From assembly GCF_024298765.1 (NCBI RefSeq), contig NZ_CP101210.1: 64,000 nt of DNA; one strand, given 5' to 3'. The notes under the pieces were generated by a model, which was not told where the DNA came from, made no database searches, and saw nothing but the letters and a program-made list of their open reading frames with translations. Position 1 is the stretch's first letter; each line of letters begins with the position of its first letter. Origin of the DNA: Escherichia coli. Its GTDB lineage: Bacteria; Pseudomonadota; Gammaproteobacteria; Enterobacterales; Enterobacteriaceae. The position numbers were made by a program, and so were the translations under genes. This document shows, in pieces, positions 63,800 to 64,000 of the stretch.

Positions 63800-64000
63800 A
63801 TGAATCCGTCTGATGCCATTGAGGCAATTGAAAAACCGCTCTCCTCCCTGCCTTACTCACTTTCCCGTCACATCCTGGAACATCTGCGCAAACTCACCAG
63901 CCACGAACCCGTGCCTGGCATTATGGGTAAAAGCGGGGCCGGTAAATCCTCACTCTGTAATGCACTGTTTCAGGGGGAGGTCACCCCGGTCAGTGCACTC
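63800..64000 (+). CDS. YeeP/YfjP/YkfA-family GTPase of CP4-type cryptic prophages (5' part, runs off window)
   Basis: Translation MNPSDAIEAIEKPLSSLPYSLSRHILEHLRKLTSHEPVPGIMGKSGAGKSSLCNALF includes a P-loop (GKSGAGKSS) and matches this prophage GTPase family. Confidence 0.75.
   Translation, partial: MNPSDAIEAIEKPLSSLPYSLSRHILEHLRKLTSHEPVPGIMGKSGAGKSSLCNALFQGEVTPVSAL

What the first reader, a model, noticed from the sequence alone, without database searches (positions are those of the whole stretch)
63800..64000. Window ends inside a CP4-type GTPase gene, implying further prophage-like cargo beyond
The YeeP/YfjP-family GTPase start lies about 150 bp after hairpin copy D. In K-12 cryptic prophages this gene precedes antigen 43 and the CbtA/CbeA-type toxin-antitoxin genes, so the island probably continues with those.
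Basis: partly seen in the sequence, partly recalled or inferred. Interest (0 to 1): 0.25.

Follow-up and report, generated by a model that had tools for sequence, protein, structure and literature searches.

The report
Internally deleted island GTPase gene remnant
The window does end inside a YeeP/YfjP-type GTPase gene of an E. coli genomic island, but this copy is a common, already-annotated 144-codon deletion remnant, followed first by a dynamin/RdcB/patatin operon (not antigen 43) and only later by the expected toxin-antitoxin genes, so it is ordinary.

Summary
An ORF starts at 63800 (ATG), 151 bp after the hairpin at 63616-63649. Its 67 visible codons carry a P-loop (GKSGAGKS) and match K-12 YfjP and YeeP.

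The window's last 13 bases contain the junction of a 438-bp in-frame deletion between two 8-bp GGTCAGTG repeats. This removes residues 66-211, which hold GTPase motifs G2-G5. The gene is therefore a 144-codon remnant of a 290-codon GTPase. The same junction occurs in 921 of 5426 complete E. coli genomes, including CFT073, Nissle, MP1 and an O25b:H4-ST131 strain.

In the closest genomes (turkey strain 181.1, CFT073) the remnant is followed by a CrfC/RdcA-like dynamin, an RdcB/YjcZ-family protein and a patatin-like phospholipase. That operon was already described on PAI-CFT073-aspV. No antigen 43 follows.

About 7 kb beyond the window end the CP4-type backbone resumes: DUF905, DUF932, antirestriction, RadC/JAB, DUF987, YeeU-family antitoxin, CbtA-family toxin and DUF5983. 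The island ends at tRNA-Asp (aspV), 16.6-20.5 kb beyond the window.

This is known, annotated sequence of low interest.

The parts
63800..64000 (+). First 201 nt (67 codons) of the GTPase-family ORF. In identical genomes the ORF is 435 nt (144 codons) and would stop 234 nt beyond the window end.
63926..63949 (+). Codons 43-50, GKSGAGKS. This is the P-loop (G1), the only G-domain motif the remnant keeps.
   Evidence: Pfam partial matches cover the P-loop region only
63988..63995 (+). GGTCAGTG, the single surviving copy of the 8-bp direct repeat at the junction of the 438-bp in-frame deletion.
   Evidence: alignment A1; junction strings; the 46-nt junction probe is found in 921 of 5426 genomes
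63996..64000 (+). CACTC, the first post-junction bases. They correspond to codons 212-213 of the intact 290-codon gene; an intact gene has ATGTT here.
63704..63799 (+). Conserved 5' leader of the island backbone. Homology to other GTPase loci with different upstream genes begins about 95 nt before the ATG.
   Evidence: L003 and L007 match L001 from 16305/16306
63745..63783 (+). G+C-rich hairpin (CCCCGCCACC-UUUCC-GGUG.CGCGGGG) followed by a U-run. It is terminator-like and ends 17 nt before the ATG.
   Evidence: z = -2.4 for the 111-nt leader
63616..63649 (.). 'Hairpin copy D'. It is the right boundary of a 4.27-kb segment that is absent in strain SCAID WND1.
62475..63578 (+). Upstream neighbour: a 367-aa protein of the PADLOC candidate defence family HEC-08 (DUF3644). 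It is context, not part of the GTPase gene.
   Evidence: E = 1.1e-173, full length

Best explanation
The window ends 201 nt into the first gene of the conserved 'CP4-type' backbone of the aspV genomic island of an ExPEC/APEC-like E. coli. That gene is a decayed copy of the YeeP/YfjP/YkfA GTPase. A 438-bp in-frame deletion between two 8-bp direct repeats (GGTCAGTG) fused codons 1-65 to codons 212-290. Replication slippage or illegitimate recombination at microhomology is the inferred cause. The product keeps the P-loop and the C-terminal helical tail. It lacks switch I (G2), DxxG (G3), the guanine-specificity motif (G4) and G5, so it cannot work as a GTPase (inferred from established G-domain knowledge). 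The remnant is a passenger. The downstream dynamin-like/RdcB-like/patatin-like operon occupies the variable cargo slot that holds antigen 43 in K-12 CP4-44, and it most likely has its own promoter in the 217-bp spacer. After this operon and three small ORFs with signal-peptide-like N-termini, the backbone resumes: DUF905, DUF932, antirestriction, RadC/JAB, DUF987, YeeU/CbeA-family antitoxin, CbtA-family toxin, DUF5983, DUF957 and DUF4942. It ends at tRNA-Asp aspV.
For: Deletion. Alignment with an intact 290-codon orthologue shows one 438-bp gap flanked by GGTCAGTG on both sides.
- BLASTP of the remnant against K-12 YfjP gives two collinear matches, 1-66 to 1-66 and 67-143 to 210-287.
- The intact form is 50% identical to YfjP end to end and passes Pfam MMR_HSR1 (55.2 bits against a 21.9 cutoff). 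The remnant fails it (19.3 bits).

Single origin and spread. A 46-nt junction probe, built so that intact alleles cannot seed a match, hits 921 of 5426 complete genomes.
- Two deleted alleles that are about 97% identical (L001, L006) share allele-specific SNPs for about 150 nt after the junction, then diverge.

Downstream content. This was read from CFT073 (99.98% identical to window 48851-64000), strain 2009C-3133, strain 181.1 (the closest genome) and MP1.

The GTPase is backbone, not cargo. Homology among GTPase loci with other downstream genes stops 2-3 nt after its stop codon.
- In K-12 it precedes agn43 in CP4-44 and precedes yfjQ directly in CP4-57.
- In MP1 the published up-regulated five-gene cluster SID94_19700-19720 runs from the dynamin gene downstream and excludes the adjacent frameshifted GTPase, SID94_RS19725.
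- A promoter-like site lies in the spacer.
Against: The window's own source genome is not fully represented in the collection. The best match covers 91% of window 40000-64000, so downstream content is inferred from identical or near-identical genomes and not read directly. Inside the window only 5 post-junction bases witness the deletion. The reading frame is preserved and the allele is widespread in ExPEC lineages, so a residual function of the 144-aa product cannot be excluded. No expression data for the remnant were available. The link between GenBank and RefSeq locus-tag numbers in MP1 is assumed.
Confidence: 0.92

Rival explanations
1. One reading: an intact CP4-type GTPase gene that is followed, as in K-12 CP4-44, by antigen 43 and then the CbtA/CbeA pair.
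For: The K-12 CP4-44 order is as recalled. The visible 188 nt before the junction are nearly identical to intact alleles, with 2-3 differences. A YeeU/CbtA-family pair does lie downstream.
Against: The window's last 5 bases already follow the deletion junction. All listed genomes that are 100% identical over the last 1.6 kb carry the 144-codon ORF. No autotransporter or Ag43 gene is annotated between the GTPase and aspV.
Confidence: 0.03
2. The 144-aa in-frame product is a retained, functional small P-loop protein. It might modulate paralogous YeeP-family GTPases (genomes that have any carry a median of 2 places and up to 8) or the adjacent dynamin operon, and would then not be a dead remnant.
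For: The deletion is in frame. The allele is present in 17% of complete genomes, including ExPEC strains such as CFT073, Nissle and an O25b:H4-ST131 strain. PGAP does not flag it as a pseudogene.
Against: An in-frame outcome has a one-in-three chance. The two allele types are nearly clonal, so prevalence may reflect lineage expansion and hitch-hiking with the island. The differences between L001 and L006 are mostly non-synonymous. Other copies of this gene decay in other ways: IS truncation in K-12, a frameshift in MP1 island 8 and a 45-bp deletion in L007. This argues for relaxed selection. The published up-regulated cluster excludes the GTPase gene.
Confidence: 0.05
3. The GTPase is the first component of a four-gene system (GTPase + dynamin + RdcB-like + patatin), and the deletion disables or re-tunes that system.
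For: 1077 genomes have an undeleted GTPase directly upstream of the dynamin operon (L003). The intact GTPase shows weak similarity to Dynamin_N (34 bits) and to the PADLOC LeoBC model (E = 1e-7).
Against: The same GTPase family precedes unrelated cargo or none. Homology breaks right after its stop codon. The spacer carries its own promoter-like site. The operon is intact and inducible in MP1 behind both a deleted and a frameshifted GTPase.
Confidence: 0.05

Closest known systems
K-12 YeeP (CP4-44, pseudogene), YfjP (CP4-57) and YkfA (CP4-6): uncharacterised 'GTPase family protein' genes of CP4-type islands
   Same: Same family. The retained segments are 49% and 41% identical to YfjP. In the three-way alignment the K-12 YeeP fragment is 97% identical to the intact orthologue from strain EPSSH018 over the region K-12 retains. 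The position is the same: first gene of the backbone, upstream of DUF932, antirestriction, RadC, YeeT and the TA pair.
   Different: This copy lacks residues 66-211 (G2-G5) and is 144 aa instead of 287-290. K-12 yeeP is decayed in a different way: its N-terminus is missing, next to an IS2 insertion.
PAI-CFT073-aspV of CFT073 and MP1, with its dynamin/RdcB-family/phospholipase operon (PMC12922286)
   Same: Window 48851-64000 is 99.98% identical to CFT073. The remnant is the same protein, WP_001069809.1, in CFT073, MP1 and strain 181.1. The operon beyond the window is the one reported as up-regulated in Kapi1 lysogens and proposed as a putative defence system.
   Different: Upstream of 48851 the window diverges from CFT073. 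Its island is a shorter variant closest to turkey strain 181.1. The paper does not discuss the GTPase remnant.
K-12 RdcA (YjdA/CrfC)-RdcB (YjcZ) GTPase system that activates DgcE (PMC6510439)
   Same: The 798-aa downstream protein aligns over the full CrfC model (566.7 bits) and has a Dynamin_N domain. The next gene matches Pfam YjcZ at E = 5.5e-71.
   Different: The score is below the equivalog cutoff of 1146, so this is a paralogue; PMC12922286 reports about 30% identity. It is coupled to a patatin-like phospholipase that the core rdcAB locus lacks. It is island-borne.
Eleos (LeoA/LeoBC) dynamin-like anti-phage system
   Same: Both contain dynamin-superfamily GTPases on mobile islands. There are weak PADLOC hits to LeoBC.
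   Different: The hits are marginal (E = 1.6e-4 for the dynamin, with no stretch passing on its own). There is no LeoA-like partner and the gene set is different.

Membership tests
YeeP/YfjP/YkfA GTPase family (Era/Der-like MMR_HSR1 G domain plus C-terminal tail) | Significant sequence similarity to K-12 YfjP and YeeP | tested here: met
   E = 7e-23 and 1e-15 for the two retained segments; C-terminal part aligned with the K-12 YeeP fragment
YeeP/YfjP/YkfA GTPase family (Era/Der-like MMR_HSR1 G domain plus C-terminal tail) | Complete G domain (G1-G5) that passes the Pfam MMR_HSR1 gathering score; length about 287-290 aa | tested here: not met
   The remnant scores 19.3 bits against a 21.9 cutoff. 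Residues 66-211 are deleted. The intact orthologue scores 55.2 bits.
YeeP/YfjP/YkfA GTPase family (Era/Der-like MMR_HSR1 G domain plus C-terminal tail) | GTP binding and hydrolysis | not testable with these tools
   A biochemical assay is needed. Loss of G2-G5 predicts no activity.
CP4-type island backbone (as in K-12 CP4-6, CP4-44, CP4-57) | Conserved module DUF932, antirestriction, RadC/JAB, DUF987 (YeeT), YeeU/CbeA antitoxin, CbtA toxin, DUF5983 (YeeW), downstream of the GTPase | tested here: met
   compared with K-12
CP4-type island backbone (as in K-12 CP4-6, CP4-44, CP4-57) | Island abuts a tRNA gene | tested here: met
   tRNA-Asp (aspV) lies 16.6 kb beyond the window end in strain 181.1 and 20.5 kb beyond in CFT073
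CP4-type island backbone (as in K-12 CP4-6, CP4-44, CP4-57) | Full-length P4-type integrase, and phage genes that would justify the word 'prophage' | tested here: not met
   None is annotated in the island stretches examined. The only integrase-like gene is a 202-aa ORF at 61477-62085 that has the catalytic domain alone. Not every base of the island was searched.
CP4-44-like cargo (antigen 43 / flu directly after the GTPase) | An Ag43 autotransporter gene following the GTPase | tested here: not met
   dynamin, RdcB and patatin genes follow instead, and no autotransporter is annotated before aspV
RdcA/RdcB (CrfC/YjdA-YjcZ) system (for the operon just beyond the window) | Equivalog-level match to CrfC/RdcA, and a YjcZ-family partner | tested here: inconclusive
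   The CrfC model gives 566.7 bits against a cutoff of 1146, so this is a paralogue. The YjcZ Pfam match has E = 5.5e-71. An interaction with DgcE cannot be tested here.
Eleos (LeoA/LeoBC) defence system | Confident matches to the LeoA and LeoBC models | tested here: not met
   only marginal partial hits

The most novel reading that the evidence does not exclude
The in-frame 144-aa protein, which keeps only the P-loop and the C-terminal tail, is carried by 17% of complete E. coli genomes, including ST73-type strains and an O25b:H4-ST131 strain. It might not be junk. It could be a retained mini-protein that modulates the paralogous island GTPases or the neighbouring dynamin/RdcB/patatin operon.
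Probability: 0.05. Interest if true: 0.35.

Novelty: already known. Interest (0 to 1): 0.1.

Why it matters
It matters little. The result corrects an extrapolation: the gene at the window edge is a dead remnant, and the cargo slot behind it holds a dynamin/RdcB/patatin operon, not antigen 43. It also shows that the GTPase marks the start of a conserved backbone, with variable cargo on both sides. Candidate defence genes (HEC-08 here; AbpAB and RnlAB in K-12 CP4-57) sit upstream, and adhesin or dynamin cassettes sit downstream. The sequence, the island and the operon are already in RefSeq and in the literature. The microhomology deletion and its frequency (921 of 5426 genomes) are a small descriptive addition that may be useful as a lineage marker or an annotation note.

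Tried and rejected
(1) I first assumed the whole window was CFT073 PAI-aspV and mapped a tRNA-Thr call into the cdiA region. Searches showed this was wrong. Only 48851-64000 matches CFT073. The window is closest to turkey strain 181.1, and the tRNA-Thr at 10301-10376 is the genuine thrW next to proA.

(2) Counting deleted alleles by coverage was indirect, because the search tool joins pieces across the 438-bp gap. I replaced it with a 46-nt junction probe in which each side alone is shorter than the 28-nt seed.

(3) A literature search for YeeP, YfjP and YkfA found no functional study.

(4) Rfam found no match in 59000-64000, so the hairpins are not a curated RNA family. The ARAGORN tRNA-Gly call at 59824-59898 is unsupported.

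(5) I checked whether the C-terminal half of the GTPase had been displaced to beyond the dynamin operon, as would happen if a cassette had inserted into the gene. It had not. The 155-aa ORF after the patatin gene is unrelated and the GTPase C-terminus is contiguous.

(6) No supplementary expression tables of PMC12922286 are held.

(7) I did not run structure prediction or the large protein-database searches, because the answer did not depend on them.

Full report
**Observation.** The + strand carries an ATG at 63800 that opens an ORF running off the window end. The 67 visible codons are MNPSDAIEAIEKPLSSLPYSLSRHILEHLRKLTSHEPVPGIMGKSGAGKSSLCNALFQGEVTPVSAL. They contain a Walker A/G1 motif (GKSGAGKS, 63926-63949). 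The last 1.6 kb of the window is 100% identical to more than 200 complete E. coli genomes, among them CFT073, Nissle 1917, ABU 83972, ATCC 25922 and several avian strains. PGAP calls the same start codon in those genomes.

**What the gene really is.** In every identical genome I inspected the ORF is only 435 nt, or 144 codons (WP_001069809.1). It is annotated either 'hypothetical protein' or 'GTPase family protein'.
- Other strains carry a 290-codon gene at the same position, for example EPSSH018.
- Aligning the two forms shows one clean 438-bp gap, which is 146 codons and in frame.
- In the intact gene both ends of the gap carry the octamer GGTCAGTG. The short allele keeps one copy.
- That copy is window 63988-63995. 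The window's final five bases, CACTC, are already post-deletion sequence; the intact gene has ATGTT there.
- Against K-12 YfjP the remnant aligns in two collinear blocks, 1-66 to 1-66 and 67-143 to 210-287. The intact 290-aa form aligns end to end at 50% identity.
- In the three-way alignment the K-12 YeeP pseudogene fragment is 97% identical to the intact EPSSH018 form over the region K-12 retains.
- The intact form has an Era/Der/MnmE-like G domain. It scores 55.2 bits on Pfam MMR_HSR1 against a 21.9 cutoff, and its PDB sequence matches are to Der, Era and MnmE.
- The remnant falls below the MMR_HSR1 cutoff at 19.3 bits. It keeps only G1 and loses T71, DLPGVG, the (T/M)QADK motif and the SA(R) motif.

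From established G-domain knowledge it cannot be a working GTPase. The short form is the derived state, because the paralogue YfjP is collinear with the long form.

**How common the deletion is.** I built a 46-nt probe across the junction with 19 + 8 + 19 nt, so that an intact allele offers at most 27 contiguous matching bases. That is below the 28-nt megablast seed.
- The probe hits 921 of 5426 complete E. coli genomes at 1014 places.
- 203 records carry the window's exact 46-mer. 718 carry a one-SNP variant, which includes an O25b:H4-ST131 strain.
- The allele from strain SCAID WND1 (L006, about 97% identical) has the same junction. It shares allele-specific SNPs with the window-type allele for about 150 nt after the junction. 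Further 3' it resembles intact alleles.
- This pattern fits a single old deletion event followed by recombination and lineage expansion.
- For comparison, 1077 genomes have an undeleted GTPase directly upstream of the same dynamin gene.
- The GTPase family as a whole is found in about 4500 of 5426 genomes, at a median of 2 places.
- Other copies decay in other ways: K-12 yeeP lacks its N-terminus next to IS2, MP1 island 8 has a frameshift, and strain JX21CE8 has a 45-bp in-frame deletion between SVAR-coding repeats.

**What lies beyond the window.** The window is not CFT073 throughout. Only 48851-64000 matches CFT073, at 99.98%. The closest complete genome is turkey isolate 181.1. It is 100% identical over 91% of window 40000-64000 and differs by an IS3 insertion. 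The downstream order is the same in 181.1, CFT073, 2009C-3133 and MP1:
- the remnant, then a 217-bp spacer;
- a 798-aa dynamin-family protein (Dynamin_N E = 3e-18; full-length match to the CrfC/RdcA model at 566.7 bits, below the 1146-bit equivalog cutoff, so a paralogue);
- a 301-aa RdcB/YjcZ-family protein (E = 5.5e-71);
- a 356-aa patatin-like phospholipase (E = 3.3e-25), in which the GGGxxG, GxSxG and DGG motifs are visible in the translation;
- three small ORFs with signal-peptide-like N-termini;
- DUF905, DUF932, a small ORF, an antirestriction protein, a RadC-like JAB protein, DUF987 (YeeT-like), a 214-aa ORF, a YeeU/CbeA-family antitoxin, a CbtA-family toxin and a frameshifted DUF5983 (YeeW-like);
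- IS elements, DUF957, DUF4942 with an internal stop, and finally tRNA-Asp (aspV).

aspV lies 16.6 kb beyond the window end in 181.1 and 20.5 kb beyond in CFT073, which has extra IS copies. No Ag43 or other autotransporter is annotated in that stretch.

The dynamin/RdcB/phospholipase operon on PAI-CFT073-aspV is already described. [quoted passage not shown] The core RdcA/RdcB pair activates the diguanylate cyclase DgcE (PMC6510439).

**Backbone or cargo.** Several results place the GTPase in the conserved backbone and not in the dynamin cassette.
- Loci with different downstream genes lose homology 2-3 nt after the GTPase stop codon (query positions 538-539; 687-688).
- Homology starts about 95 nt before the ATG, whatever gene lies upstream.
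- In K-12 the same gene precedes agn43 in CP4-44 and precedes yfjQ directly in CP4-57.
- In MP1 island 8 the published up-regulated five-gene cluster, SID94_19700-19720, runs from the dynamin gene downstream. It excludes the adjacent frameshifted GTPase gene SID94_RS19725. This assumes that GenBank and RefSeq tag numbers correspond.
- The spacer carries a sigma-70-like site overlapping three CGATCGTT repeats.

The remnant is therefore most likely a passenger, and the operon most likely has its own promoter. That last step is inference.

The family assignment was right, as was the expectation that the island continues and contains a CbtA/CbeA-type pair. The assumption of an intact gene was wrong, and so was the prediction of antigen 43. 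'Prophage-like' is generous. I found no phage structural genes and no full-length P4-type integrase in the stretches examined.

**Novelty and interest.** This is known, annotated sequence in hundreds of RefSeq genomes, on a named pathogenicity island, with the downstream operon already discussed in print. The only additions are the exact deletion mechanism and junction, and the allele's frequency. Interest is low. The most novel reading I cannot exclude is that the in-frame P-loop mini-protein retains a function, at a probability of about 5%.

Noticed in passing
window 59353-59376 and 63621-63644 (full hairpin 63616-63649); a related copy at 60409-60432 (-): A segment of about 4.27 kb is bracketed by two copies of an imperfect 24-nt hairpin repeat, GTCCGCyyyTGGCACAGAGCGGAC. 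It holds a 269-aa ORF, an ETEC_3214-family gene, a 202-aa integrase-like ORF with the catalytic domain alone, and the HEC-08 gene. Strain SCAID WND1 lacks the segment and has a single hybrid hairpin made of the left half of one copy and the right half of the other. The hairpin behaves like a cassette boundary or recombination site. The mechanism is unknown, and Rfam has no match.
   Followed up: partly
window 62475-63578 (+): The 367-aa protein just upstream of the GTPase matches the PADLOC candidate defence family HEC-08 over its full length (E = 1.1e-173) and the PADLOC DUF3644 model, with no Pfam hit at E <= 0.01. In RefSeq strain 181.1 the same gene, split by IS3, is labelled 'hsdR'. [quoted passage not shown] Both labels are probably misnomers for this small non-helicase protein.
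   Followed up: partly
beyond the window: L001 16942-16995 (equivalent to about 341-394 nt past the window end): The 217-bp spacer between the GTPase remnant and the dynamin gene holds three CGATCGTT(A/T) repeats, two of which form an 8-bp-stem palindrome. They overlap a promoter-like TTAATA-18-TATCAT site (4 matches against 0.45 expected). This is a candidate operator for the Kapi1-responsive regulation reported for this operon.
   Followed up: partly
window 59110-59119 / 59133-59142: An inverted repeat, TGATCGTTAT ... ATTACGATCG, lies just upstream of the divergent TonB-dependent receptor gene (start at 59102, - strand). Its core resembles the CGATCGTT repeats upstream of the dynamin gene. 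This was seen by eye only.
   Followed up: no
window 10301-10376 (-) and 59824-59898 (-): ARAGORN calls tRNA-Thr(CGU) and tRNA-Gly(GCC). The first is the genuine thrW next to proA, with a vat-bearing island remnant on its other side. The second lies inside the 269-aa ORF, is not annotated in RefSeq, and has no Rfam tRNA match at E <= 1. It is probably a false positive.
   Followed up: partly
window about 32000-64000, compared with CFT073: The window's aspV island is a shorter variant than PAI-CFT073-aspV. It matches CFT073 only from 48851 onward. From the annotation of the closest genome, strain 181.1, the part nearer the core gene yafV carries a type I secretion cluster with a large repeat protein and a PapB-family regulator. 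The pic and cdiBAI genes that occupy the corresponding stretch of CFT073 have no match in the window.
   Followed up: partly
L007 6096-6923 (strain JX21CE8); L014 22573-23446 (MP1 island 8); L004 8696-9247 (K-12 yeeP): Independent decay of the same GTPase gene at other loci: a 45-bp in-frame deletion between SVAR-coding repeats, a frameshift, and loss of the N-terminus next to IS2.
   Followed up: partly
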